Positions 56 through 13,849 of a stretch of 43,981 nucleotides of DNA are shown here, in pieces (the first letter of the stretch is position 1; the number at the start of each line of letters is the position of its first letter). Where the stretch lies: positions 1 to 43,981 of the IMG/VR virus record IMGVR_UViG_3300045988_012512; one strand, given 5' to 3'. The notes under the pieces are model-generated. The model did not search any database, was not told the DNA's origin, and saw only the letters and a list, made by a program, of their open reading frames with translations. Source of the stretch: a virus. Its lineage: Duplodnaviria > Heunggongvirae > Uroviricota > Caudoviricetes. The position numbers and the translations under genes are program-made.

Positions 56-1033
56 CATTGTGCCGACAAACGGCTTATATGACACAGTGGGTGTGGAGCT
101 ATAAGTGTAGTAGTTACGGTATCTCAGAGTGCCGTCGGGGTCGATTTCGTGAACCTCTGTTTTTGTTTTACTTTCGCCAGTGTCGCGTAGCATGACGACA
201 TCTGTAGAATCAAGAATAAGAGACCCCTGTAACCCAGTAACAGGGAAGCTCGTCTGCCCTTTCAGGTAACTTACTGCGGAAAACATCGAAGTTACGTCAG
301 TAGTAGATTGAGGTATATGAAAAAGAGTAGTGTCAAGGGACCACACATCGCCGGATTGATAAGTAGAACATGTGACAGTTGCCCCGCTCATATCCGCAGG
401 CACTTCTATAGATAACGGGTCGCTACTGCTTGCCGTCAAAACATAATCACCATTTGCCAAAAAAGATGAGCCGCGTGATTTAGCTTCCGCCAACGCAGCT
501 TTCCACGCAGCGGTGTGGTCTGTCTCCAGCCCTGTCATAAACATCTCTGGTGTCACGGGGGTAGCGGTCTTAATATGGTCAAGTTCTTCTGCAATTGTAA
601 GACCGGAAGAGTGTCCAACAAGAGCGCTGCCAGAGGTTGATGCTAATTCTTCACGTAAATCAGGGTCAGTCTGAGACTTCCAGTTAGCGTTACCAACGGG
701 GTTAAATGCCGCCGGAACCGTAACAGGCAGTGTGCCGGCATACGAGTACCATGTCTTACTTACAGGGTCGTAAACGACTTTGTCGCGGTCATTAACTGTT
801 AACGTACCGCCGGTGGAAAAGTCCCATGACACTGGAGAAAAACCAGCGTCACGCAACACGGCAGGAAGCGTCTTCTGAGTCTGCCCAGTAACTGCGTTGG
901 TCGCGTAATCAATATCCGCACCCGTAGCCACACCGCCCGCTTTACCCGTGATAACCTCGGCTTCGAAGATCTGGTGTTTCTTGGCGGTTTGTAAATCCGC
1001 CAGGCTTAAAACGTCACCGCATCCGCTTGACAT
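1..1033 (-). CDS. tailspike / depolymerase-like protein, N-terminal part (continues in frame at 43926..42506; about 817 aa in total)
   Basis: ATG at 1033..1031 with AAAGAGGA 8 nt upstream; translation MSSGCGDVLSLADLQTAKKHQIFEAEV...; no stop before position 1; absent from the ORF track only because it runs off the window edge. Confidence 0.6.
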   Translation of the reverse strand, partial: MSSGCGDVLSLADLQTAKKHQIFEAEVITGKAGGVATGADIDYATNAVTGQTQKTLPAVLRDAGFSPVSWDFSTGGTLTVNDRDKVVYDPVSKTWYSYAGTLPVTVPAAFNPVGNANWKSQTDPDLREELASTSGSALVGHSSGLTIAEELDHIKTATPVTPEMFMTGLETDHTAAWKAALAEAKSRGSSFLANGDYVLTASSSDPLSIEVPADMSGATVTCSTYQSGDVWSLDTTLFHIPQSTTDVTSMFSAVSYLKGQTSFPVTGLQGSLILDSTDVVMLRDTGESKTKTEVHEIDPDGTLRYRNYYTYSSTPTVSYKPFVGTMVVKPPRVALDGARINNII

Positions 1034-1045
1034 ATAGAGTCCTCT

Positions 1046-3601
1046 TTAATTAAAACCATTGCTGAATCCGTCGGAGAAACCGCTGCCGTATGGCGCGACG
1101 CCGTCGTATTTATAGAATCCGTCGTCATAGTTGTAGCCCGTAATCTTGACCGTGCGGTCGTCGCCGGGGTCGATTGAAGAAACAACTATCTTCTGAGCAT
1201 TATGCCTTGCTTCGTTGCCGAATGAAAACTCAGTTTTTAGTGCACTATTCCCCGTGTAGATTGCTTCCTCCGGCGCGGAGAGCATAATCACTTCGCGGTC
1301 ATGGCTTCCTTCGATAACGGATATACTCTGCACGGAGCCGTCTCGCTTCTTGAGGATGATGGAGTGGTCATCGCCGGGGGTAAACGTAACAGGTTGCGAT
1401 AGCGTCAGCGTAAGCCCATTAACGGCAACAATGTAGCCATCCTGCGGTGCAATACGGGAGCCTTTAACCACGCTGATTATGCCGCCGGGTGTGGCGAGAG
1501 CACCTTCTTCGGTAGCTTCGAACTCTACGACAACTTTACTTAACGCGTTGCGCTGGTAGCGACGCCACGCCAGCCAATATGCCTGCTGATAGTTACGTAC
1601 GCCCTTCGATTCATATTCCTCGGTGTTTGCTCCGAGTTCTTCCGGGATATAAATCGTTTCCTGTACGTTAGTATCCGGGTCGATGTATGAGAACGACAGG
1701 CTATCGTAGGTTGTAGAATCGTTGAACGTGCGGGTCCATTTCTCCGTACCGGTAGTTTTGCTGCGGTGGGTGAACACCATTTCAGGCCCCGCAACCGGAC
1801 GATCGAATCGCAGCATAATATCCGCACCTTTACGGTACGCAGTACAGAACACGGCTTCCGCTATGGTCTGAACAATGTCCTGCATGGTTGTGTCGTAATC
1901 GTCGAACGTGTAGCAGAACTGACCTGCTAATTCGCTACCGAAATATGACTCAATCTCTTCCTGCACGGCGAGTAACTTGTCCATGTTTGCGGTTGTCAGT
2001 TCCAGATTGCCAACCACCGGGTCGCGCGCCAGTCGGATTAGCGACTGCACAGCCTGGGTATTTGGCGTCATTACTGTATCGAATACGCCGTTGCCTAAGT
2101 ATTTGTAGCACATCTCGGTTGCAATCATGCGCAGTTCCGGGTTGTCGATACTGGCGGCCCGCGGCGTCTGTTTACGGGCGCAATGTACTGTTGTCCTGTT
2201 GCCGTAGTGCGGGGTTGTGTCCAGAGACTGCCCGTACAGGTTGATGAACGTTATCTCGTCGCTTACCGTTCCGTCGTAGTCCTTATCGAAATTCGTTATA
2301 CGGCGCATACGGGCGCGGAAACGCGATGCAGTAGGCAACTGCCCATAAATGGATGTACCGACGTAATCCGTGCTATTACCGGTAATTGTGGCCTGTACCG
2401 TGTAAATACCGCTCAACGGGTTACGCTGAGAGTCAATCATCTGGTACTGGAGTTCTACGGTTACGCTGGTGCGGTTATAGCCGCCATCGTATTTGTAGAG
2501 GCCGTTCTGCCCGGCAACGTTAGCAAGCACACGGTCAACTTCCCCGCGCACCATGTAATACCAGTCGGTCAGGGATACGTCATAGGTGTTGCTCGGGCCA
2601 ATAAACGTATCTGAACGCTCTGTTAGGGTGTACGTCTGCCCGCTGGTCAACGCCGCCCAGTTAGACGCTCCGTTTACCGCTAATCTAACTTCGAAGTCGT
2701 CGACATATAAAACTTCAAACGAGCCGTTCAGGTTAGTGACGTCCGCAACGTCAAAGTTGCTCAGCACCGCTACGTCGCCAACGCTAAGAAACTCAGAAAA
2801 AGCAGAGTCGCCTGACGGGTCATAAATGTAGCCGGTGTTTGAGATACGTTTGGCTGTGCCGTCGGCGCTTGGGTTAGCTCCGATGTCGTTTGGTGCTTTC
2901 AGTACGATACCGTCAACGTCGTCGTTGGAGTATGTCACATAGAGTTTCTGGTCAATGACGTCGCCGATTTGTAGCTGCGGCGATGCGGTGTTGTTCGGGG
3001 AAGTATACGGCGCATACACGGCTACAGAGGAGCCTGTGATGTCGCTTATCAGGGTGTCGCCTTCCGTTACGCCATCAGCCTCAATATGCAGATGCCCGCG
3101 CCCCGCGTCATAATACGAATACTCCAGCAAAGCACCCGTGGAGTTGAACGCTTTATACGTCTGCATCAGGTCGTTAGGGATTGTCTGCACAGTCCCGCAG
3201 ATGTCATAGGAGCGCTCGTAAGGACGAGGCTTGTTGGAGCGATCTGTTAGGCTGTTATTCGGTGACGTTGTCTGATTGTTAGTCGCCGTGTAGTTGGCGT
3301 TTGCGGACATGTTCAGACCAAACAACTTGGCAATTGGCTTAAGGATAAAACCAAACACCTTACTAACCGCACCGAGCGCCCCGCTACCCGCACCCTCAAT
3401 AATGTGGTACACGGCGTCTTCGTCTTTGAGCGCGTCGAAGTCGTCTGTCACATCAGTATCATCGCCAATCTCACCGAGGTAGACGCGCACAGGCACGCCG
3501 TCCGGGATACGGTTAACGACAAACTCCATCGGCATCCCGACGTGTTTTGTACGGTCGAAAGCGCCGTCGGCGTTTCGCGTGTAGTGCAGGATTATCGCCA
3601 A
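1046..3601 (-). CDS. tail tip / host specificity protein (lambda J-like)
   Basis: 851-aa ORF immediately downstream of the lambda-like tip genes; FRARMRRIT motif resembles lambda gpJ. Confidence 0.6.
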   Translation of the reverse strand: MAIILHYTRNADGAFDRTKHVGMPMEFVVNRIPDGVPVRVYLGEIGDDTDVTDDFDALKDEDAVYHIIEGAGSGALGAVSKVFGFILKPIAKLFGLNMSANANYTATNNQTTSPNNSLTDRSNKPRPYERSYDICGTVQTIPNDLMQTYKAFNSTGALLEYSYYDAGRGHLHIEADGVTEGDTLISDITGSSVAVYAPYTSPNNTASPQLQIGDVIDQKLYVTYSNDDVDGIVLKAPNDIGANPSADGTAKRISNTGYIYDPSGDSAFSEFLSVGDVAVLSNFDVADVTNLNGSFEVLYVDDFEVRLAVNGASNWAALTSGQTYTLTERSDTFIGPSNTYDVSLTDWYYMVRGEVDRVLANVAGQNGLYKYDGGYNRTSVTVELQYQMIDSQRNPLSGIYTVQATITGNSTDYVGTSIYGQLPTASRFRARMRRITNFDKDYDGTVSDEITFINLYGQSLDTTPHYGNRTTVHCARKQTPRAASIDNPELRMIATEMCYKYLGNGVFDTVMTPNTQAVQSLIRLARDPVVGNLELTTANMDKLLAVQEEIESYFGSELAGQFCYTFDDYDTTMQDIVQTIAEAVFCTAYRKGADIMLRFDRPVAGPEMVFTHRSKTTGTEKWTRTFNDSTTYDSLSFSYIDPDTNVQETIYIPEELGANTEEYESKGVRNYQQAYWLAWRRYQRNALSKVVVEFEATEEGALATPGGIISVVKGSRIAPQDGYIVAVNGLTLTLSQPVTFTPGDDHSIILKKRDGSVQSISVIEGSHDREVIMLSAPEEAIYTGNSALKTEFSFGNEARHNAQKIVVSSIDPGDDRTVKITGYNYDDGFYKYDGVAPYGSGFSDGFSNGFN

Positions 3602-4472: not shown

Positions 4473-5873
4473 TTAACCGTCCACATTAAAATCAATACGG
4501 GTGATATATTTACTACCCCACGCAGAATCGGCCTGAGGGATAGTCGCGTAATCATCTACAGCCTGAACGTTTACCACAGAGCCATCGGAATAGGTTATGT
4601 TGATGCTTGTCGCGCCATTCATGGTTACTTTCGCGGACGCTGTCGAGCGGGTGACAACAACGGCATCGGTTATTACCGGGGATGTTGTATTTTGGTTTAC
4701 CTCTACAGTAGCCGCGGATAATTTAACCCCTGAAACGCCATCCCCCGTAAATGACCCGGTAACTCCGTCTGAATATATCCATGCGTCCATCCGTATGCTC
4801 ATTGTTTTATCTTCTGTTGCGGTAATCGTCTCCGATATTCGGAACCACCCTCCGCCTACGTCGGTTACATCTGTACCGCCTGGGCCGGAATAAATGCTAC
4901 CATCCCGCAAATCAACAACTGCTGAGCCTAATACTGTAGGAAGTTCTCGCACGTACATCCGTATGAAATTGTATCCGTTTGCTTTTGCGAAGAAACTAAA
5001 AGTAACCATGTCGCCAACACCAACGCTAACATCTACAGTCTGGTTTATTAGGTGGTTACCGCTTGTGGCGGTAGCAGTTACGTCGTACGTGCCTGCGGCT
5101 GTTAAAACACCTGTTTCAGATACTGATACACTCACCAAACCTTTGTTCCAGTTTGACGAAGAGAAATTGCTTGAATATAGGAATCTGTTAGTTACTGATG
5201 CCTCCGGTGGCACACGCCCAACTGCCGAGCCATCGATAAACGTAAGTGGCCATTCACCGGCGGCGGACTGCACAAGATTGCCGTTTCGGTTGATGTAATA
5301 AACCTGCGGCCCGTCATACACAATGCGGCTATCAAGAGTCGACGCCAGAAGGTTAATCGGCGGGTATCCTGCAGGCCCTTCATTGCTCCAGATGCGCGGG
5401 AACGTCGTCTCGTAGTTCGCATATATTTTCAGGAAACTACCCAGACAGTCCCCGTAACAACCGTACAAATCCGGAAGATTGTTAATCAGGCACTGGTTCT
5501 CAAGGTCCTGGAACGGCGATTTCTCGGCGGTTGCCGTGAAAGTAATCGTCCAGTTAATGCCATCTTCGGTGGACTCAGCGATGGTGGACGTGATTGTTAC
5601 CTGGTAATCCTCAATACCCATGCCGAAGTCGTGCGCCATCCAGAAACTTGACGCACCGCCGTCTACTTTTTCTAGGAACGACAGAAATGCCTGCCGCCCC
5701 AGCGCCGATGTAATCAAGGTTACGCTCACCGGGAACACGTCGTAATATGTGTCGCGTCCCTGACGCACCCCGCCACCGGCTAAATCTACACTCCAGACGT
5801 TGTTGCGTCTGGTCATTGAGTAGCCTTTCGACACAATAGGCTTAAGGCTACGTGGGAAATATAAGTCGGTCAT
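4473..5873 (-). CDS. minor / distal tail protein with C-terminal Ig- or carbohydrate-binding-like extension
   Basis: 466-aa ORF directly downstream of tape measure; stop/start overlap at 5873. Confidence 0.45.
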   Translation of the reverse strand: MTDLYFPRSLKPIVSKGYSMTRRNNVWSVDLAGGGVRQGRDTYYDVFPVSVTLITSALGRQAFLSFLEKVDGGASSFWMAHDFGMGIEDYQVTITSTIAESTEDGINWTITFTATAEKSPFQDLENQCLINNLPDLYGCYGDCLGSFLKIYANYETTFPRIWSNEGPAGYPPINLLASTLDSRIVYDGPQVYYINRNGNLVQSAAGEWPLTFIDGSAVGRVPPEASVTNRFLYSSNFSSSNWNKGLVSVSVSETGVLTAAGTYDVTATATSGNHLINQTVDVSVGVGDMVTFSFFAKANGYNFIRMYVRELPTVLGSAVVDLRDGSIYSGPGGTDVTDVGGGWFRISETITATEDKTMSIRMDAWIYSDGVTGSFTGDGVSGVKLSAATVEVNQNTTSPVITDAVVVTRSTASAKVTMNGATSINITYSDGSVVNVQAVDDYATIPQADSAWGSKYITRIDFNVDG

Positions 5874-8161
5874 TATTTAAACCCCGGCGCGTTTCTTGTG
5901 GCCTTGCGGGCCTTGCTAATCTTACTGTTGCTGTTCTGCAAAGACGCGGCGACTTGCTCCTCTATGATGATACGCAGACGGCCTTCATCATCTTGTTCTG
6001 TGGATACGTTGCCGATTTGAGAACTTGTGTTGTTTACGATAGTAACATTAGACGGGCCGGAAGAAGACCCGTTTTGCCCCATAATTTCTTTCATCTGCTG
6101 CGCGGTGCGCACGCGTGATGCACCAGCTGGCATGATAACTTCTGGTTTACCACGTTCTGCGATGGTGGAAGCCTGCCCCGCAGATAACTGACCGCCCTGT
6201 TCACGCGCGGACCGGATAGCGGAAACCTGCGCCATACCTGCACCAACGGCAGCGGCAGCGGCTACAGGGGCCAGGAACGGGCCAACTACAGGTATAGCTG
6301 CCGTTGACTTGTACGCCTCAATAGCTGCGGTGTACGTGGCGATAGTGGCCTGTACGATAGCGAATGCCTTGTACGCGCCAGAAGCCTCACCCAACGCAGA
6401 CCCGATGTTTGAGGCCATGTTACCAAAGGCCGTTGCCGTTGCATCGGCACGTTTGGTTGCGTATTGCTCGTTGATGGCGTTAAGAGCGGCCTGATACTGC
6501 TTCTCGCTAATCAAACCCTGCTCGCGGTACTTATCCGCTACCGCCAGTTTCTGCTGTTCCTGGATGTCGAGAAGCTCAAGCTCAGTAGCGTTCTGACCCA
6601 TAATCTGAGCCATGAAGTCGTCACCTTTCTGCTGCTTTTCCTGGGCTTCTTTCTGGCGTTTATCCAGTTCATCTTGTCGTTTTTGCCCGGCTTCGAGGAC
6701 GATAGCTGTTTTAGCTTGTTCATATTCTTTCAGGGACAACGCGCCCTGGCTGTAGAACTCTTTTGCCTTAGCCAGTTTCTGCTGTTCCTGCGCGTCGATA
6801 GCCTTTAACTCGTCGTTGTTCTGACGGGCCAAAGTGTCGAGGTAATCTTGCGCCTGATTCCGCAATTGCTCTGCTTTCTTGGCGGCGGCTTTTGCTGCTT
6901 TATCGTCGGTTGTCCCCACCCCACCAGTTCCGCCCTTTTTATTAACAAGGCTGGCTAAGTCAATTTCTTGCTTCTTACGCTCGTCGTACTGCTTGCGCTG
7001 TTCCTCAATTTCTTTCTTACGCTGTTTCGAGCGGTCAGTTATTGCCTGTGATTCTGCCTCCGCGCGTTTTATGCTAGCGGCGTACGCGGCGTCGGCCTCT
7101 GCGGTCAGGTTTTTAAATGTTAGCGCCGCCGTTTTGCTCGGGTCAAACACGTCGGCAAGGGTCTGCCCTAACGCTACAGCGTAATCGTCGATGCGCTGGA
7201 ACCACGCAATAACCTCGTGAAATGTCTGCTGGATGTCCGGCAACCACTCACGGATAGCATCCGGTATAGTCCCCAGCGAGTCAGACATATCAACGGATTT
7301 GTCCTCGGTATCGAATGCCAGGTCATTCAAGGCGTCGGAAATAAACTTGAATGACTCATTGAACAGCGCCACCCAATCCTGGAGCGTGGCGGCTATCTCA
7401 TTAGACGCGATGGCGTCGGTAAGCGCCGTGATAGCGTCTTCCGCTGTGGCCGCTTGCTCACCTACGGCGTCGCCAAAACCAGACTGCGCCACCGCAAGAA
7501 CAAGACCGTCGAAGGAGTCGGCGAGGCTCGATAACTGGCCGTCTAGCGTCTTAGAGCGCGTCTCCATCGCCCCGGCAAAATCGGTGTTGCCGATATTCAG
7601 GAGGTATTTCTGAATCTCTTCGGAGTTCTTCTTAACCGTGGTCGTTACGCCGCGGAACGTGAACGAAACTGTATCTGCCTGTTGCGACGACTTGATGCCG
7701 AACTCTTTTAAGCGCTCAAATTCAAATGTACTGGCGTCGGCAACTGCCTCAATCATCTGATTAAGGTCTTTACCCATAGCCGCCGCGGTGTTGCCGTAGG
7801 AGATTAACGCCTCTTTGCTGGGGTTCAGACCGAGCGCAACGAGCTTGGTAAACCCCTCTACCGCCTGATTGAGACCATACGGGGTCTCTTTTGCGAACTG
7901 TTGCAGGACGCTGAAAGCCTTAGCCGCGTTCTCGGCGCTCCCGGTCATCGTGATGAGGCCGGAGTTCAGCTTATCGAAGTTTCGCTGGGAATCCACCAGC
8001 GCGCTGAACACCTGCTTAGCGGTTTCCAGACTGACAACGGCGGCGGCGGCGGCCCCCGCCGCCTTGGTAAGCCCGTTCAGTTGTGATGTGGTTTTATCGA
8101 CGCCGGTCGATGATACTCGTACTATCAAGCTAGCGGTATCAGCCATGATTTCTACCTTCAA
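5873..8161 (-). CDS. tail tape measure protein
   Basis: 762 aa, Ala/Gln-rich with long coiled-coil segments; located between chaperones and tip genes. Confidence 0.8.
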   Translation of the reverse strand: MKVEIMADTASLIVRVSSTGVDKTTSQLNGLTKAAGAAAAAVVSLETAKQVFSALVDSQRNFDKLNSGLITMTGSAENAAKAFSVLQQFAKETPYGLNQAVEGFTKLVALGLNPSKEALISYGNTAAAMGKDLNQMIEAVADASTFEFERLKEFGIKSSQQADTVSFTFRGVTTTVKKNSEEIQKYLLNIGNTDFAGAMETRSKTLDGQLSSLADSFDGLVLAVAQSGFGDAVGEQAATAEDAITALTDAIASNEIAATLQDWVALFNESFKFISDALNDLAFDTEDKSVDMSDSLGTIPDAIREWLPDIQQTFHEVIAWFQRIDDYAVALGQTLADVFDPSKTAALTFKNLTAEADAAYAASIKRAEAESQAITDRSKQRKKEIEEQRKQYDERKKQEIDLASLVNKKGGTGGVGTTDDKAAKAAAKKAEQLRNQAQDYLDTLARQNNDELKAIDAQEQQKLAKAKEFYSQGALSLKEYEQAKTAIVLEAGQKRQDELDKRQKEAQEKQQKGDDFMAQIMGQNATELELLDIQEQQKLAVADKYREQGLISEKQYQAALNAINEQYATKRADATATAFGNMASNIGSALGEASGAYKAFAIVQATIATYTAAIEAYKSTAAIPVVGPFLAPVAAAAAVGAGMAQVSAIRSAREQGGQLSAGQASTIAERGKPEVIMPAGASRVRTAQQMKEIMGQNGSSSGPSNVTIVNNTSSQIGNVSTEQDDEGRLRIIIEEQVAASLQNSNSKISKARKATRNAPGFK

Positions 8162-8471
8162 ATATTGCTTCTAAGCCCATGATAATGTCTATCTCGAACA
8201 GGCTAAGCTGTTTTTGCGTAACATCGAGATAGGCTTTCAGGTCTTGCCACGTAACAGATTCTCTTGCAAACAATACTACAGCGTCCTCGCGCACGTGTCG
8301 CGTAAACTTAATGTCGCAATACGTCTCAAAGGTGGATATAAAAAGGGGCGGGCATTCTGGCCCACCCCGTCGCGCTGCACGTTTTTTCTTATCGATTACA
8401 CCCATCGCGATAAGCGCCTGTTCGTGTCCGTCGGCGATAGAATCAAACTCTCTGATTTTATGCTTATCCAC
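8139..8471 (-). CDS. tail assembly chaperone extension (GT-like, possibly made by -1 frameshift from 8504..8920)
   Basis: ORF in the -1 frame relative to the upstream chaperone; frame is open back to about 8522 and overlaps the chaperone stop. Confidence 0.4.
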   Translation of the reverse strand: MDKHKIREFDSIADGHEQALIAMGVIDKKKRAARRGGPECPPLFISTFETYCDIKFTRHVREDAVVLFARESVTWQDLKAYLDVTQKQLSLFEIDIIMGLEAIFEGRNHG

Positions 8472-8503
8472 AAACTCGTAGGTGGCGAACCTGTACAGCG
8501 CGT

Positions 8504-8920
8504 CTACTTTTCCTGTAATGCTTTACGCTCGGCGTTATGGAACGCCGCCACCTGTGTACCTAATGCCTTGAATTGGTCGAGCAATTTGCTAAACGCTTCC
8601 TTAGAGAAAGGCTCGTCAAAGCTCCAGCCGTTTACTACTTCTGCCGCAAGTTGCCGGTTGAGGTCTTCTGCCAGTTCGTTAACCGCCATGTTATATTCAG
8701 TATAATCACCAGAGTCTTTGGCAGCTTTTTCCAGTTCTTCAAAACGTGCCAGCCCGCGGCGGTACGCAATAATGAAAGCACGCCCCGCTTTAACGGCGAC
8801 ATCCGCATCGGGACTTACAACGTTAAGCCATTCACCGGAGTCTTCGCCGTTTGGCAGCAGAATGGGCATCTTCTTGCCTACCAGTGCTTTCTCTTCGAAA
8901 TAAAAATCAGAAAGTTTCAT
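8504..8920 (-). CDS. tail assembly chaperone (G-like)
   Basis: 138-aa acidic ORF just upstream of tape measure; AAGGA RBS. Confidence 0.5.
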   Translation of the reverse strand: MKLSDFYFEEKALVGKKMPILLPNGEDSGEWLNVVSPDADVAVKAGRAFIIAYRRGLARFEELEKAAKDSGDYTEYNMAVNELAEDLNRQLAAEVVNGWSFDEPFSKEAFSKLLDQFKALGTQVAAFHNAERKALQEK

Positions 8921-9028
8921 TCTTTAATCCTTTGGTTAAGAGGTTACAGGTTAACGATAAATGCGCCAGACGGGAACCACCCGCTTTTCGTGTGCGACAC
9001 TAGGCGCAAACTTATTCTATCACATTAC

Positions 9029-9057
9029 TTGCACACCCCAATATAATAGGGTACTAT
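9029..9057 (+). promoter_or_regulatory. sigma70-type promoter (TTGCAC-17-TACTAT) for the plus-strand island
   Basis: Canonical spacing; same promoter architecture recurs at 18527, 29673 and 30772. Confidence 0.55.
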
Positions 9058-9087
9058 TCACTTACACCAACAATGAAGGGGTTTAAA

Positions 9088-9279
9088 ATGTCCAGTTTAC
9101 CAGTTTCCTTAATTCTGTTTGCACTGCTCGCTTATTTCGCGCCTTTCCTGGTTGCGTACTTCCGTAACCATAAAGCGAAGTTAGCGATATTCATGGCTAA
9201 TCTGTTTCTTGGTTGGGTTCTGCTGCCGTGGGTATTTATCTTAATCTGGGCGTGCAACTCGAATGTCAAAGAGAAGTGA
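9088..9279 (+). CDS. superinfection-immunity-like small membrane protein
   Basis: Two hydrophobic helices with AYFRNH...ANLFLGWVLLPWVFILIWA, resembling the Imm superinfection-immunity family; AAGGGG RBS before the ATG at 9088 (ORF track starts at 9073). Confidence 0.55.
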   Translation: MSSLPVSLILFALLAYFAPFLVAYFRNHKAKLAIFMANLFLGWVLLPWVFILIWACNSNVKEK

Positions 9280-9317
9280 GCTAGTATAGGACAAATCCTA
9301 AACACGAGGAAGTAAGC

Positions 9318-10448
9318 ATGGCCCAGAAGAAAATAACCGACGAACAGTTACAGGAAGAATTGAACGCCGGGATGAAGAATGTAGACATCGCCCGTAAATA
9401 CGGCATCTCAGACCGCGTTATTCGTATCCGTAAAGCGAAGCTGGCTAAGAAAGGCGTAGGTCACGGGCGAGACGTTAGTCACCTTGTGCCCGATGGCTAC
9501 AAGATTAAGGGTACATCGTCTCTGGTGGACGAGTTCGGCAACACTAAGTTGCAATGGGTTAAGACCGACACCGATGCCGAACGTCAGGTAGAGTTGATGA
9601 AAGCCGTAATCGAAGGAATGAAATCAGAGATTACGCCAGTCGCCCCTGTTAAAGCGGCACGCGCCAAACGTGACGATAAACTACTCAATCTTTACACTGT
9701 GTCTGATTTTCATCTCGGTATGCTGGCATGGGCCGATGAGAGCGGCGACGACTGGGATATGAAGATTGCAGAAGACCTGTTCTCTCGATGGTTCGACGCG
9801 GCGTTTCAGAAAGCACCGGACGCGGGAACAGGAGTTATTAACCTTCTGGGCGACCTCGCTCACTTCGATAGTCTGGATGCAGTTACACCTGCAAGCGGGC
9901 ATGTTCTTGATGCGGACACGCGCTATCAGAAACTTGTACGCTATATGATTCGGATGGTCCGCCGTGTCATTGATATGGCGCTGGTTAAGCATAAAAATGT
10001 TCGCTTGCTTATCGTGCAAGGGAACCACGACGAAAGCGGAATGATTTGGTTGGCTGAGATGTTCAGTACGCTGTATGACAACGAGCCGCGGGTGTTCGTC
10101 GATACGTCGCCGGATGTTTACAAGATGGTGCAACACGGCAAAACGACGCTGTTCTTTCATCACGGTCACAAAGCACGCTTCGACGCTATCGAACCAGTTA
10201 TGATTGCCAAGTTCCGCAAAGCGTTCGGCGAGAGTATTTACAGCTACGCCCACGTAGGCCATCTGCACCACCAGAAGATTGTAGAAAGCCGTAACATGAT
10301 TGTTGAGCAACACCGCACCTTAGCGGCTAAAGACGCCTACGCCTCTCGCGGCGGATGGATGTCGGGCCGCAGTGCAAATGTAATTACTTATAGCGCCGAA
10401 TATGGCGAGGTCGCACGTTTAACTATTTCACCGGAGATGCTGGGATGA
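9318..10448 (+). CDS. HTH domain fused to calcineurin-like (SbcD/Mre11-type) metallophosphoesterase
   Basis: N-terminal HTH (VDIARKYGISDRVIRIRKAKL); five phosphoesterase motifs SDFHLG, GDLAHFD, GNHDE, HHGH, GHLHH. Confidence 0.75.
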   Translation: MAQKKITDEQLQEELNAGMKNVDIARKYGISDRVIRIRKAKLAKKGVGHGRDVSHLVPDGYKIKGTSSLVDEFGNTKLQWVKTDTDAERQVELMKAVIEGMKSEITPVAPVKAARAKRDDKLLNLYTVSDFHLGMLAWADESGDDWDMKIAEDLFSRWFDAAFQKAPDAGTGVINLLGDLAHFDSLDAVTPASGHVLDADTRYQKLVRYMIRMVRRVIDMALVKHKNVRLLIVQGNHDESGMIWLAEMFSTLYDNEPRVFVDTSPDVYKMVQHGKTTLFFHHGHKARFDAIEPVMIAKFRKAFGESIYSYAHVGHLHHQKIVESRNMIVEQHRTLAAKDAYASRGGWMSGRSANVITYSAEYGEVARLTISPEMLG

Positions 10449-10933
10449 AAGATATTGTAATTTTCGATTTAGACGGGACATTGGCCGACGGTACCCATCG
10501 CTTACACCTGTTACCAAAAGATAACTACGGAGAAACGTGGGCGTGGAAGCCATTTAACATGGCCTGCAAAGATGACGCTCCGATATACGACAATATCCAT
10601 TTGTGTAGCGTACTGTGGCATTCCGGACTTACTATAATTATCCTTACCGGGCGAAGTGATGACGCTGAGGAGGAGACTCGCGAATGGTTACGAGAGAATA
10701 ACGTTAGGTTTGACACGCTAATCATGCGCAGCAAACACGACAACAGAAAAGACATCGTAATTAAAGAAGAGGTGTTGCGTGCTTTCGGACTGGAAAGAAT
10801 CTTGTGTGCGTTCGACGACTCTCCAGCGGTAATAAAGCATTTCCGTGACCTCGGCATAACCGCACACGCAGTTACCGAATACGACTGTAACGGGAACTCT
10901 ACACACTTAAAACCACACGGGAGCGATAAATAA
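10445..10933 (+). CDS. HAD-superfamily phosphatase (T4 polynucleotide kinase 3'-phosphatase-domain-like)
   Basis: FDLDGTLA, IIILTGRSDD, RKDIVIKEEVL and DDSPAV motifs; ATGA overlap with the upstream gene. Confidence 0.7.
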   Translation: MKDIVIFDLDGTLADGTHRLHLLPKDNYGETWAWKPFNMACKDDAPIYDNIHLCSVLWHSGLTIIILTGRSDDAEEETREWLRENNVRFDTLIMRSKHDNRKDIVIKEEVLRAFGLERILCAFDDSPAVIKHFRDLGITAHAVTEYDCNGNSTHLKPHGSDK

Positions 10934-11487
10934 TGGCTAAGGTAATTATTCTTAATGGCCCTGCGGGTTGCGGGAAAGACACGCTTGCTATGGCGCTGGT
11001 AGAAATGGGCTTTGCGAAAGGAACTACCAGTTTCAAGAATCCAATGTTCAATATTGCTTTGGCAGCGTTAGGCCAGGATGCTTACCACGAATTTCTCGAC
11101 GGCTACGACGACCGGGCGCGGAAAGAAAAACCCGAGGGTTTTCTTAATGGGTTGTCCCGCCGCCAGTTAATGATTGCCATTTCTGAGCAATTCATTAAAC
11201 CGGTATTCGGCGATGATTATTTCGGTAAGTATCTTGCTGAAAACTTGCCTGACGGCGACGAAGTTTTTGTAGTGTCCGACGGTGGATTCGCCAGTGAAGT
11301 TGCCCCTATCGTCGCCGCGGGGCATGACGTGCGAATCGTCCGCCTCCATCGTGACGGCTATACGTTCATCGGCGATAGCCGTGGCTATCTGTACGATGTT
11401 AGTGGTGTAAAAGATTACGACACCTACATCATACCGGGTGACGTTAAATCGAACGTTATAGACATTGCTTTAAAATTAGGTTTGTAA
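10933..11487 (+). CDS. deoxynucleoside monophosphate kinase (T4 gene 1-like P-loop kinase)
   Basis: Walker A GPAGCGKDT; further blocks resemble T4 dNMP kinase; TAATG overlap with the HAD gene. Confidence 0.65.
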   Translation: MAKVIILNGPAGCGKDTLAMALVEMGFAKGTTSFKNPMFNIALAALGQDAYHEFLDGYDDRARKEKPEGFLNGLSRRQLMIAISEQFIKPVFGDDYFGKYLAENLPDGDEVFVVSDGGFASEVAPIVAAGHDVRIVRLHRDGYTFIGDSRGYLYDVSGVKDYDTYIIPGDVKSNVIDIALKLGL

Positions 11488-12688: not shown

Positions 12689-13101
12689 AGCCTCTTGGTG
12701 AATGCAATAAAGTTAATTGACAATGGTCTTTTGGCCCATCCGTTTTCTACAATCAGCGGCCCCAGGCTAACCGATTGAACCTCGGCGCAGATGTCGTTAC
12801 GTGAAAATGACTTACCTGCTTTAAACGCCGTGTTAAGTAAGTCTGCCATTTTATTGATTGGCGCGCTACCTTTCACCGATGCGCAGTTAATGTCTACCTG
12901 ATAAACACCTGAGCGTTGTTCAGTGAAGAACAAGTCTGCCTGTTCCGTATCTGCCAGCAACATGTAACTTGCCAGATACGGCGTATCGGTTGACGTCGGC
13001 GCGTCGATGTTTTCAAGCGCGACCTTGATGCCGTTGGTTGTCCCGAAGGCTACCAGCGGCACGTCGAACGCTTTGGTTAAGTCCTCAAAGTAGCCCATCA
13101 T
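12685..13101 (-). CDS. tail terminator / neck protein
   Basis: 138-aa ORF immediately upstream of the major tail gene, overlapping its neighbours. Confidence 0.4.
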   Translation of the reverse strand: MMGYFEDLTKAFDVPLVAFGTTNGIKVALENIDAPTSTDTPYLASYMLLADTEQADLFFTEQRSGVYQVDINCASVKGSAPINKMADLLNTAFKAGKSFSRNDICAEVQSVSLGPLIVENGWAKRPLSINFIAFTKRL

Positions 13102-13493
13102 TTCACCTTATTGGCTTCTTCATTAATTAGTTGCTGGAAGCGTGACACGTTAGTCCTGACCATGCCTTGCGGGGCCTGTTGCGACCAACCGTACTCAAGA
13201 GGTTGGGCGTACGGCAGGTTATTAGTCAGCGTGAACTCGTGCCAGTCTGCGGCTTTCAGCACAAAACTAGTGGCGTTTCCTATTGCGATGTTACCAGACT
13301 TGTCGGTAGCGTCTGTAGTTCCTGAAGCGGGGGTTCCTCCCGACGCCATCCAGTTCATACGAAAACGCCCTTTGTCTACCGGACTCGCCTTTATAATAGC
13401 GGAAAACAGCTTGATAGACACCTGACGCATCACCGTTTCAGGATTCTTCTTCGCCTTCTCGACGAACTTAGAGACATCAAGCGCGAAACTCAT
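13098..13493 (-). CDS. tail completion / head-tail adaptor protein
   Basis: 131-aa ORF in the neck cluster. Confidence 0.4.
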   Translation of the reverse strand: MSFALDVSKFVEKAKKNPETVMRQVSIKLFSAIIKASPVDKGRFRMNWMASGGTPASGTTDATDKSGNIAIGNATSFVLKAADWHEFTLTNNLPYAQPLEYGWSQQAPQGMVRTNVSRFQQLINEEANKVK

Positions 13494-13849
13494 TTTCTCA
13501 CCTGAATGAAGTAGGCCACAACATCATCGTTAACCATCTTCTTCTCGATGGCTACTACTGACCATTGCTCGCCGCCGAATTGCACCTTGTCTTCCATTTT
13601 CGGAACGACGCTGTAATCGGCTTTAACAATCATGTCTCCGGCCTGAATGGTTGTACCGTTAACTAAACCTGCGTTAACCGGAACAGGCGCGGCTTTCAAC
13701 GGCAGCACTTCATCCGCAGACCAGACGTATTCACCGAGAACCTCATCCCACACTTTCGAGCCAGCGCGAACCAGAGATACCGCGCTGCCGAATTTGGTTA
13801 GCAGGCGTGTACCCACGCCCTGCATACGTTTACTAAAGGCGGTGCTCAT
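13490..13849 (-). CDS. head-tail joining protein
   Basis: Likely start at internal ATG 13849 (overlaps upstream stop); ORF track extends to 13903. Confidence 0.4.
   Translation of the reverse strand: MSTAFSKRMQGVGTRLLTKFGSAVSLVRAGSKVWDEVLGEYVWSADEVLPLKAAPVPVNAGLVNGTTIQAGDMIVKADYSVVPKMEDKVQFGGEQWSVVAIEKKMVNDDVVAYFIQVRK

What the first reader, a model, noticed from the sequence alone, without database searches (positions are those of the whole stretch)
8471..8560. Candidate programmed -1 frameshift joining the tail chaperone to the downstream ORF
The ORF 8139..8471 is in the -1 frame relative to the chaperone gene 8504..8920 and stays open back through the chaperone stop. The last chaperone codons read CAG GAA AAG TAG, so slippage on GAAAAG just before the stop would fuse the two, like lambda G/GT. 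The heptamer is not canonical (GGAAAAG, not XXXYYYZ), so this is uncertain.
Basis: partly seen in the sequence, partly recalled or inferred. Interest (0 to 1): 0.4.

Follow-up and report, generated by a model that had tools for sequence, protein, structure and literature searches.

The report
Tail chaperone frameshift with long-range helix
This is the expected lambda G/GT-style -1 ribosomal frameshift that fuses two tail-assembly chaperone reading frames of a Kagunavirus phage; public records already annotate it, but the slip site abuts the stop codon and is followed by a conserved long-range RNA helix that I found described nowhere.

Summary
On the minus strand the chaperone ORF (8920..8504) ends CAG GAA AAG TAG. 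The -1 frame is open from 8522 to TGA 8141..8139, which overlaps the tape-measure ATG at 8146. The window is a Kagunavirus, 98.5% identical to K1ind2/K1ind3. The same fusion (…ALQEK|VDALY…) is already deposited for K1ind2 (ADA82419.1, YP_009597354.1), so the frameshift call is not new.

Comparison adds three points.
- All 78 distinct relatives (17 clusters, T identity down to 38%) end the chaperone gene with NNA_AAG_UAR.
- Coding constraint switches from frame 0 to frame -1 at the stop, and no start codon is conserved in T.
- Most relatives have G_GAA_AAG. Twelve have GCA or UCA before AAG, where the P-site tRNA cannot re-pair. The invariant core is therefore tRNA-Lys slippage on A_AAG next to a stop codon.

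A long-range helix starts 4-5 nt after the stop (window 8502..8493 with 8380..8371). It is conserved with compensatory changes, it is recovered unaided by RNAalifold, and it is much longer than protein-preserving recodings give. Its 3' arm sits at three different places in different clades. I read it as the frameshift stimulator. That role and the fusion protein itself are untested.

The parts
8504..8920 (-). G-like tail assembly chaperone ORF (138 aa), ATG 8920 to TAG 8506..8504
   Evidence: Pfam Phage_TAC_4 E=6e-6 above its cut-off. PHROG 15027 'tail assembly chaperone' positions 1-138 of 259, E=4e-71.
8507..8513 (-). Near-cognate slippery heptamer G_GAA_AAG
   Evidence: The G before GAA is kept in all 64 GAA-class relatives although the codon that carries it varies (CAG, UCG, CUG, AUG, GCG, UUG). 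RP180 has canonical G_GGA_AAG and L110 has A_AAA_AAG.
8507..8510 (-). Invariant core shift site A_AAG (tRNA-Lys re-pairs from AAG to AAA)
   Evidence: NNA_AAG directly before the stop in 78/78 distinct relatives and 17/17 clusters. In L022 and L023 the shift window is only 10 nt, C GCA AAG TAA.
8504..8506 (-). Chaperone stop codon UAG, directly 3' of the shift codon ('shifty stop' position)
   Evidence: UAG in 58 and UAA in 20 of 78 relatives, never UGA, always with zero spacing.
8523..8525 (-). TAA in the -1 frame; upstream limit of the window in which the shift can occur
8139..8510 (-). T segment read in the -1 frame (AAA 8510..8508, GTA, ... TGA 8141..8139; 123 codons), giving a 260-aa G-T fusion ...ALQEK|VDALYRF...
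   Evidence: Pfam Phage_TAC_18 E=1e-18. PHROG 15027 positions 137-259. Third-position variability 1.14 against 0.49 and 0.48 bits in the -1 frame. The K1ind2 fusion with the same junction equals ADA82419.1 / YP_009597354.1.
8493..8502 (-). 5' arm of the long-range helix, CGCGCUGUAC, starting 4 nt after the AAG
   Evidence: In the MFE and centroid structures. Pair probability 0.77-0.97. No synonymous variation in the arms among 18 Kagunavirus sequences.
8371..8380 (-). 3' arm of the long-range helix, GUGCAGCGCG (10 bp with the 5' arm, one G-U; encloses 112 nt)
   Evidence: Covariation on alignment A3. RNAalifold recovers the helix unaided. Reached by 1 of 400 protein-preserving recodings and at 0.9% of positions along the window.
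5873..8146 (-). Tape measure protein gene; its ATG 8146..8144 overlaps the T stop in ATGGCTGA
   Evidence: Annotation of K1ind2. The ATGnnTGA overlap is kept in all relatives.

Best explanation
A small fraction of ribosomes translating the tail assembly chaperone gene slip back one nucleotide at A_AAG (8510..8507), the last sense codon before UAG. The single E. coli tRNA-Lys re-pairs from AAG to AAA, and the next codon read is GUA. The ribosome then continues for 121 more codons in the -1 frame to TGA 8141..8139. The product is a 260-aa G-T fusion (...ALQEK-VDALY...) made alongside the 138-aa G protein. By analogy with lambda gpG and gpGT, the shared G part would bind the tape measure protein encoded immediately downstream, and the T part would recruit the major tail protein.

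In this window the preceding codon gives the near-cognate heptamer G_GAA_AAG. On this heptamer tRNA-Glu can re-pair to GGA with a central G-U, so two-tRNA slippage is possible here. The element conserved in every relative is only A_AAG plus the abutting stop.

Two features probably raise the slip rate.
- The stop codon lies directly 3' of the shift codon, so slow termination may give the tRNA time to slip.
- A 10-bp long-range helix (8502..8493 with 8380..8371) has its first pair about 11 nt from the first base of GAA, the codon in the P site when AAG is in the A site. From general knowledge, that is roughly where mRNA enters the ribosome.

Shown here: the anatomy, its conservation, the frame switch in coding constraint, and the conservation and covariation of the helix. 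Inferred: that the fusion is made, its ratio to G, the roles of the stop and the helix, and the protein functions.
For: The window is a Kagunavirus. G and T match tail-assembly-chaperone families, and PHROG 15027 spans both halves. Joined CDSs are annotated in K1ind2 and fKuEco01, and the exact fusion sequence with this junction is in public databases.

Conservation of the site:
- 78/78 distinct relatives in 17 clusters keep NNA_AAG_UAR, with T opening in the -1 frame at that point and ending in an overlap with the tape-measure ATG.
- The Lys codon is always AAG and the preceding codon always ends in A, whatever amino acid it encodes.
- Third-position variability switches from frame 0 upstream to frame -1 downstream of the stop.
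- No start codon is conserved in T, and 72 of 78 relatives have no Shine-Dalgarno-like motif upstream.

The helix:
- Clade A has 86% of cells paired against 17-53% when the partner is slid, 5 of 11 pairs have changes on both sides, and 0 of 500 shuffles reach the covariation score.
- RNAalifold finds the helix unaided in both clade alignments.
- In at least one of the two sequence contexts folded, it is in the MFE structure of all 15 lineage representatives; pair probability is 0.77-1.0 in 12 of them in both contexts.
- 11 of 18 representatives exceed at least 99% of protein-preserving recodings; the Fisher combination gives 1e-14 if lineages are treated as independent.

Literature: A_AAG is the best -1 tetramer in E. 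coli but is barely shifty without a 3' stimulator (0.15% alone, 5.6% with the IS3 pseudoknot; PMC4066793). NNA_AAG sites are used by B. subtilis cdd and IS1222 (PMC5009743).
Against: No protein, ribosome-profiling or reporter data exist for this phage group in anything I could search.
- The heptamer is not canonical, and one genome announcement for a related phage states there is 'no canonical slippery sequence' (PMC6776780).
- A CTG or TTG codon at +8 is conserved. Independent initiation there cannot be excluded by sequence alone, because the four codons before it are constrained anyway by the stop overlap and the helix.
- Helix covariation rests on a few substitution events shared by related sequences. 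In clade B the helix is mostly invariant; 6 of 500 shuffles reach its covariation score and only one pair shows changes on both sides.
- Seven lineages have only 7-8 bp helices, which 4-27% of recodings reach.
- A spacer of 4-5 nt is at the short end of known stimulators.
- Overall folding energy of the region is not unusual (z = -0.43).
Confidence: 0.8

Rival explanations
1. Classical two-tRNA slippage on the heptamer G_GAA_AAG, with no need for the stop codon or the helix. The protein product is the same and only the mechanism differs.
For: The G at heptamer position 1 is kept in all 64 GAA-class relatives across six different codons. That is what P-site re-pairing GAA to GGA (G-C, G-U, A-U) would require. 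RP180 has the canonical G_GGA_AAG and L110 has A_AAA_AAG. As I recall from the lambda literature (not retrieved here), lambda needs no defined 3' structure; my scan found none comparable there.
Against: Twelve of 78 relatives (6 of 17 clusters) have GCA or UCA before AAG, with a variable upstream base, and there the P-site tRNA cannot re-pair. The stop is adjacent in 78/78 relatives. Nucleotide-level conservation continues into the helix arms at synonymous sites.
Confidence: 0.3
2. No frameshift. The downstream ORF is a separate protein started at its own codon (GTG 8471, ATG 8405, or the CTG at 8498..8496), as many GenBank records annotate it.
For: Most of the 494 phage records list the ORF as a separate hypothetical protein. 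Bas74 calls it from the CTG 5 nt after the stop. A CTG or TTG at that position is conserved.
Against: GTG 8471 is GTC or GTT in close relatives, the ATG is replaced by ATC or ATA in others, and three lineages have no ATG/GTG/TTG in the first 36 T codons. There is no conserved Shine-Dalgarno-like motif. The CTG lies inside the helix 5' arm. This model does not explain invariant AAG (never AAA) preceded by NNA, or the G before GAA. CTG starts are very rare in E. coli (general knowledge).
Confidence: 0.07
3. The frameshift is real, but the long-range helix has another role, such as mRNA stability, protection of the largely untranslated T region from Rho or RNases, or control of tape-measure translation. 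Alternatively it is a neutral relic.
For: Its function is inferred from position only. The 3' arm is 112-190 nt away, which is unusual for stimulators. No relation was seen between slip-site class and helix length. From general knowledge and by analogy with lambda's 30:1 ratio, about 95% of ribosomes would stop at UAG, leaving the T region exposed.
Against: The 5' arm always starts 3-5 nt after the stop although the 3' arm has moved at least twice (+72, about +126, about +198). That points to selection on where the helix begins. A_AAG needs a 3' stimulator to work in E. coli (PMC4066793). At 7-16 bp the helix is too short for RNase III, and no U-tract follows it (general knowledge).
Confidence: 0.3

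Closest known systems
Phage lambda gpG/gpGT tail assembly chaperones (-1 frameshift at G_GGA_AAG; the class generalised by Xu, Hendrix and Duda 2004)
   Same: Two overlapping ORFs lie directly upstream of the tape measure gene. The second is in the -1 frame and ends in an overlap with the tape-measure start. The shift codon is AAG read by tRNA-Lys, and the expected product is a minor G-T fusion (PMC5009743).
   Different: In lambda the heptamer is canonical and the G stop lies 5 codons downstream. No comparable helix was found there (best 8 bp with 2 G-U). Here the site is G_GAA_AAG / A_AAG, the stop abuts it, and a conserved long-range helix follows. The proteins fall in other Pfam families (Phage_TAC_4 and Phage_TAC_18). 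An inverted four-gene cassette separates the major tail gene from G.
IS3-type -1 frameshifting on an A_AAG tetramer with a 3' pseudoknot (Sharma et al. 2014, PMC4066793)
   Same: It uses the same minimal shift site A_AAG with single-tRNA re-pairing. It depends on a 3' RNA structure a few nucleotides downstream (5 nt in IS3, 4-5 nt here).
   Different: The IS3 stimulator is a local pseudoknot and its stop is not adjacent. Here the structure is a simple helix closing a 112-190 nt loop, no pseudoknot was identified, and it serves phage tail assembly rather than a transposase.
NNA_AAG hexanucleotide sites: B. subtilis cdd (A_CGA_AAG) and IS1222 (G_CGA_AAG) (PMC5009743)
   Same: These are non-canonical heptamers in which only tRNA-Lys re-pairs well. 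According to PMC5009743, efficiency depends on the two bases 5' of A_AAG.
   Different: The 5' codon differs (CGA there; GAA, GCA or UCA here). As I recall, cdd uses an upstream Shine-Dalgarno-like stimulator, and none is conserved here.
Long-range frameshift stimulators: IS3411 and 27 other IS elements (second element 44-104 nt 3') and T7 gene 10 (>200 nt) (PMC5009743)
   Same: A distal sequence 70-200 nt downstream takes part in the stimulatory structure.
   Different: In IS3411 a local stem-loop's apical loop kisses a distal internal loop. Here the strand next to the shift site pairs directly with the distal strand.
Burkholderia phage KL1 gp18/gp19 (predicted GGGAAAC immediately upstream of the TGA stop; PMC3483164)
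   Same: It is a predicted tail chaperone -1 shift site that abuts the 0-frame stop.
   Different: It has a canonical heptamer, a UGA stop, and only a short local stem-loop suggested by Mfold. No comparative evidence was given.

Membership tests
G/GT-type tail assembly chaperone frameshift (lambda class) | Two overlapping ORFs immediately upstream of the tape measure gene | tested here: met
   ORFs 8920..8504 and 8522..8139; tape-measure ATG at 8146.
G/GT-type tail assembly chaperone frameshift (lambda class) | The pair lies directly downstream of the major tail protein gene | tested here: not met
   In K1ind2 the 'putative tail protein' gene that I take to be the major tail gene is separated from G by four genes on the opposite strand. 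Gene order is otherwise preserved.
G/GT-type tail assembly chaperone frameshift (lambda class) | The second ORF is in an alternative frame, is constrained as coding from the overlap onward, and has no conserved start of its own | tested here: met
   -1 frame in 78/78 relatives. The third-position signal switches at the stop. No conserved ATG/GTG/TTG and no conserved Shine-Dalgarno-like motif.
G/GT-type tail assembly chaperone frameshift (lambda class) | Canonical X_XXY_YYZ slippery heptamer in the overlap | tested here: not met
   The window has G_GAA_AAG. A canonical heptamer occurs only in RP180 (G_GGA_AAG) and L110 (A_AAA_AAG).
G/GT-type tail assembly chaperone frameshift (lambda class) | Fusion protein produced at a low fixed ratio and required for tail assembly | not testable with these tools
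   Only annotation exists. No experimental report was found.
G/GT-type tail assembly chaperone frameshift (lambda class) | Sequence membership in tail-assembly-chaperone protein families | tested here: met
   Phage_TAC_4 (26.9 bits, cut-off 21.1) and Phage_TAC_18 (67.6 bits, cut-off 27); PHROG 15027. As far as I recall, these are not lambda's own gpG and gpT families.
Z_ZZN tetramer -1 frameshift with 3' stimulator (IS3 type) | A_AAG with an A in the preceding position, allowing cognate re-pairing of tRNA-Lys | tested here: met
   78/78 relatives.
Z_ZZN tetramer -1 frameshift with 3' stimulator (IS3 type) | Stable RNA structure starting a few nt 3' of the motif | tested here: met
   A helix starts 4-5 nt after AAG (one lineage 3 nt). 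It is conserved and covarying. This is predicted, not probed.
Z_ZZN tetramer -1 frameshift with 3' stimulator (IS3 type) | The stimulator is a pseudoknot | tested here: inconclusive
   No pseudoknot-capable prediction was run. Only nested helices were examined.
'Shifty stop' frameshifting (Weiss et al. 1987 concept) | Stop codon immediately 3' of the shift codon | tested here: met
   Zero spacing in 78/78 relatives; UAG 58, UAA 20, UGA 0.
'Shifty stop' frameshifting (Weiss et al. 1987 concept) | Frameshift level responds to release-factor activity or to replacing the stop with a sense codon | not testable with these tools
   Requires reporter assays.
Any curated Rfam RNA family | Covariance-model match | tested here: not met
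   No match at E<=1 in 8100..8950 on either strand.

The most novel reading that the evidence does not exclude
Guernseyvirinae-type phages use a frameshift signal unlike lambda's. It consists of a minimal A_AAG (often G_GAA_AAG) site abutting the stop codon, driven by a long-range mRNA helix that starts 4-5 nt downstream. The distal arm of that helix has been relocated at least twice in evolution (+72, about +126, about +198) while the proximal arm stayed in place. The 112-190 nt loop is largely free of ribosomes, because most ribosomes are expected to terminate at the G stop, so the helix can form. A ribosome that has shifted keeps the helix open while it crosses the loop, which could space out frameshift events and help fix the G:GT ratio.
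Probability: 0.5. Interest if true: 0.6.

Novelty: new variant of a known kind. Interest (0 to 1): 0.42.

Why it matters
The frameshift call itself is routine and already deposited for near-identical phages. What matters is the comparative result.
- It settles conflicting annotation of this gene pair across about 500 phage genomes. Records variously give a separate 'hypothetical protein', a CTG-started ORF, 'no canonical slippery sequence', or a joined CDS.
- It gives annotators a simple rule for this phage group: NNA_AAG_UAR, with T joined in the -1 frame.

For recoding biology it offers a natural, evolutionarily replicated test case. The system combines a tetramer or near-cognate shift site, an adjacent stop codon and a long-range helix whose distal arm has moved. 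Each element can be tested with synonymous mutations in E. coli reporters or in the phage itself. Kagunavirus and Jerseyvirus phages are used in therapy and biocontrol, so correct gene models have practical value.

Tried and rejected
- **Local stimulatory hairpin or pseudoknot within about 120 nt.** Single-sequence folds and RNAalifold on -12..+120 gave nothing conserved (3 invariant pairs, -0.6 kcal/mol). The region's folding energy is ordinary (z = -0.43). The helix appeared only when partners up to +370 nt from the stop were allowed.
- **Upstream Shine-Dalgarno-like stimulator, as in dnaX or cdd.** Absent in 72 of 78 relatives.
- **Rfam.** No match.
- **Transcriptional slippage.** The A-run is only 3-4 nt (GAAAAG or GCAAAG), far below the runs that support polymerase slippage (general knowledge). 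Rejected.
- **Stop-codon readthrough.** T is in the -1 frame, and frame 0 after the stop shows no coding signature. Rejected.
- **+1 shift.** The +1 frame closes after 13 codons. Rejected.
- **Independent start at GTG 8471.** Not conserved.
- **Helix as a by-product of conserved peptides plus codon bias.** Tested with protein-preserving recodings and rejected for most lineages. Seven short-helix lineages are not individually significant.
- **The search for homologous proteins with the fusion.** It returned only 4 hits and added nothing.
- **Literature searches.** Searches for a description of this site or helix in Kagunavirus, Jerseyvirus, SETP3 or Guernseyvirinae found only two genome announcements, which contradict each other.
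- **Link between slip-site class and helix length.** None seen.

Full report
**What is in the window.** All features below are on the minus strand.
- A 138-aa ORF runs from ATG 8920 to TAG 8506..8504. Its last codons are CAG GAA AAG TAG.
- The -1 frame has a TAA at 8525..8523 and is then open from 8522 to TGA 8141..8139.
- That TGA lies inside ATGGCTGA, so it overlaps the ATG (8146) of the 2.3-kb tape measure gene.
- A frame change joining the two ORFs must therefore occur within 19 nt (A GCA TTA CAG GAA AAG TAG).
- After the stop the -1 frame runs 121 codons without a stop, which random sequence gives with probability about 0.003. The +1 frame closes after 13 codons.

**Identity.** The region is 98.5% identical to Escherichia phages K1ind2 and K1ind3, and 117 phage records match it, nearly all Kagunavirus.
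- The first ORF matches Pfam Phage_TAC_4, and the -1 ORF matches Phage_TAC_18 (E = 1e-18).
- PHROG 15027 ('tail assembly chaperone', 259 positions) covers the first ORF with positions 1-138 and the second with positions 137-259.
- RefSeq K1ind2 and GenBank fKuEco01 annotate a joined CDS spanning both ORFs (782 nt span, which fits a -1 shift). Bas74 annotates two separate genes.
- I built the K1ind2 fusion with the junction ...ALQEK|VDALY... An exact look-up found it as ADA82419.1, ADA82468.1, YP_009597354.1 and UniRef100_D2XJT9.

The frameshift is therefore already a public prediction, as far as I recall dating from the original GenBank submission of about 2010. I found no experimental test of it. 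Two genome announcements for related phages contradict each other: one says 'no canonical slippery sequence' (PMC6776780), the other that the slippery sequence is present (PMC6763656).

**Comparative test of the frameshift.** Two scans of IMG/VR returned 111 loci with 78 distinct sequences, forming 17 clusters at 80% nucleotide identity. T-protein identity to the window goes down to 38%. The set includes Jerseyvirus (SETP7) and Klebsiella phage lineages.
- **Shared layout.** In all 78 sequences the chaperone gene ends NNA_AAG_UAR. T opens in the -1 frame exactly there, is 122-123 codons long, and ends in an ATGnnTGA overlap with the tape measure start.
- **Narrow shift window.** In two sequences the window is only 10 nt, C GCA AAG TAA.
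- **Switch in coding constraint.** Column entropy by codon position is 0.77/0.67/1.31 bits in frame 0 upstream of the stop. Downstream it is 0.49/0.48/1.14 bits in frame -1. Purifying selection changes frame at the stop.
- **No conserved start.** The GTG at 8471 is GTC or GTT in close relatives. The next ATG is 101 nt past the stop and is replaced in other lineages. Three lineages have no ATG/GTG/TTG in the first 36 T codons.
- **Selection on the nucleotides of the site.** Lys is always AAG and never AAA. The preceding codon always ends in A, whether it is GAA (64), GCA (11), GGA, UCA or AAA (1 each). This is what tRNA-Lys re-pairing to AAA requires, and independent initiation of T would not need it.

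- In the 64 GAA-class sequences the base before GAA is always G, although the codon carrying it varies (CAG, UCG, CUG, AUG, GCG, UUG).
- G_GAA_AAG allows tRNA-Glu to re-pair on GGA with a central G-U, so two-tRNA slippage is probably selected in that class, which includes this window.
- In 12 sequences (6 clusters) the codon is GCA or UCA with a variable upstream base, and P-site re-pairing is impossible.
- One relative (RP180) has lambda's G_GGA_AAG and one (L110) has A_AAA_AAG.
- The invariant core is therefore the tetramer A_AAG. It is the best of the 16 -1 tetramers in E. coli, but it is barely above background alone (about 0.15%) and reaches 5.6% only with a 3' stimulator (PMC4066793). 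NNA_AAG sites are used in B. subtilis cdd and in IS1222 (PMC5009743).

**The adjacent stop.** The stop follows AAG with zero spacing in 78/78 sequences. It is UAG in 58 and UAA in 20. It is never UGA, although GUG would still encode Val in the T frame. The next base is A in 71. In lambda the stop lies five codons after the heptamer. This positional invariance fits the classical 'shifty stop' idea, in which slow termination gives a P-site tRNA time to slip. That role is inferred, not shown.

**A long-range helix.** Local folding found nothing. However, the block just after the stop (GCGCUGU) was invariant at synonymous sites. Searching further downstream found a complement in every lineage.
- In the window, CGCGCUGUAC (8502..8493) pairs with GUGCAGCGCG (8380..8371). 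This is 10 bp with one G-U and encloses 112 nt.
- The helix is in both the MFE and the centroid structures, with pair probability 0.77-0.97.

*Clade A* (Kagunavirus, Jerseyvirus and four others) has the 3' arm at +125..+135.
- The arms covary: GCGCUG/CAGCGC becomes GCGUUG/CAACGC in Jerseyvirus. Within Jerseyvirus, GUUGU/ACAAC changes to GUUGC/GCAAC, with a U-G intermediate in L056.
- On alignment A3, 86% of cells pair, against 17-53% when the partner is slid.
- Five of 11 pairs have changes on both sides, and 0 of 500 shuffles reach the observed covariation score.
- The 3' arm lies in the most variable part of the T protein. In the VLCpiS11a-like cluster the same CAGCGC motif occurs in a different codon register. 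Protein constraint therefore does not explain the complement.

*Clade B* has the 3' arm at +193..+210 and helices of 8-16 bp.
- 79% of cells pair against at most 47% when slid. The helix is mostly invariant, with one UA/UG/CG pair.
- L110 pairs with a third site, at +72.

*Further support:*
- RNAalifold recovers both helices without guidance.
- In at least one of the two sequence contexts folded, the helix is in the MFE structure of all 15 lineage representatives.
- Along the window, a helix this long from a 6-nt start window occurs at 0.9% of positions.
- With the T protein and codon usage held fixed, 11 of 18 representatives exceed at least 99% of recodings. The other 7 have short helices that 4-27% of recodings reach. 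The Fisher combination is 1e-14, an overstatement because the lineages are related.
- Among 18 Kagunavirus sequences, none of 7 synonymous sites in the arms varies, against 25 of 116 elsewhere.

**How it most likely works.** The 5' arm always begins 3-5 nt after the stop's first base, which is 4-5 nt after AAG, even though the 3' arm has moved at least twice. With AAG in the A site, the first pair of the helix lies about 11 nt from the first base of GAA, the P-site codon. From general knowledge of ribosome geometry, that is roughly where the mRNA enters the ribosome. Because A_AAG needs a 3' stimulator in E. coli (PMC4066793), I read the helix as that stimulator. From general knowledge and by analogy with lambda's 30:1 ratio, most ribosomes would terminate at UAG, so the T region would be nearly ribosome-free and a 112-190 nt loop could close. 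Long-range stimulators are known (IS3411 at 44-104 nt, T7 gene 10; PMC5009743), but their architecture is different. The protein roles rest on analogy with lambda only: G binds the tape measure, T recruits the major tail protein, the ratio is about 30:1, and neither is in virions (PMC5009743).

**Rivals.**
- Pure heptamer slippage without helpers is possible in this window but cannot be the conserved mechanism.
- Independent translation of T from a CTG or TTG at +8 cannot be excluded by sequence. It is unlikely, because it does not explain the selected A_AAG.
- The helix may serve another purpose.
- Transcriptional slippage, readthrough and a +1 shift are rejected.

**Verdict.** I could find no description of the conserved A_AAG-stop cassette or of the covarying long-range helix. 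Together they make this a variant of the G/GT frameshift that differs from lambda's and is directly testable.

Noticed in passing
window 13098..13849, minus strand: RefSeq K1ind2 carries a second joined CDS (ORF14A/14B, 'tail completion or Neck1 protein'), which corresponds to this stretch. In the window the downstream ORF has its own ATG (13493..13491) in an ATGA overlap with the upstream stop, and an AGGTGAG Shine-Dalgarno 6 nt upstream. Ordinary translational coupling may explain it better than a frameshift. The 0-frame end reads AGA AAA TGA.
   Followed up: partly
window 8921..11487: An inverted four-gene cassette on the + strand (superinfection immunity, exonuclease, polynucleotide kinase, ATP-binding protein) lies between the major tail gene and the chaperone gene. 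The chaperone, fusion and tape-measure genes therefore begin a new transcription unit after a divergent intergenic region at 8921..9072.
   Followed up: no
L014 (Raoultella phage RP180) 2908..2914; L110 about 1498..1504: Two relatives have a canonical heptamer at the same position: G_GGA_AAG (one A-to-G change from the Kagunavirus site) and A_AAA_AAG. Both still have the adjacent stop and a long-range helix.
   Followed up: partly
L021-L027 (Klebsiella phage VLCpiS11a-like), +118..127 and +194..208 after the stop: This cluster has complements to the 5' arm at both distal sites, which may be an intermediate in relocation of the 3' arm or a pair of alternative structures.
   Followed up: no
clade-B loci, +5..+19 and +194..+208 after the stop (e.g. 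L073, L022): The 5' arm encodes A-L-Y-E-F and the 3' arm encodes K-F-I-Q-R. The two conserved peptides of the T protein are antisense translations of each other, so RNA pairing and protein sequence constrain one another.
   Followed up: no
public phage records (494 with a T homologue): Annotation of the downstream ORF is inconsistent. It is most often 'hypothetical protein', sometimes a separate chaperone called from a CTG (Bas74), and sometimes a joined CDS.
   Followed up: partly
78 relatives, stop codon of the chaperone gene: The stop is UAG or UAA and never UGA, although UGA would keep Val (GUG) in the T frame. The third base flips within clusters and the second never does. Unexplained.
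   Followed up: no
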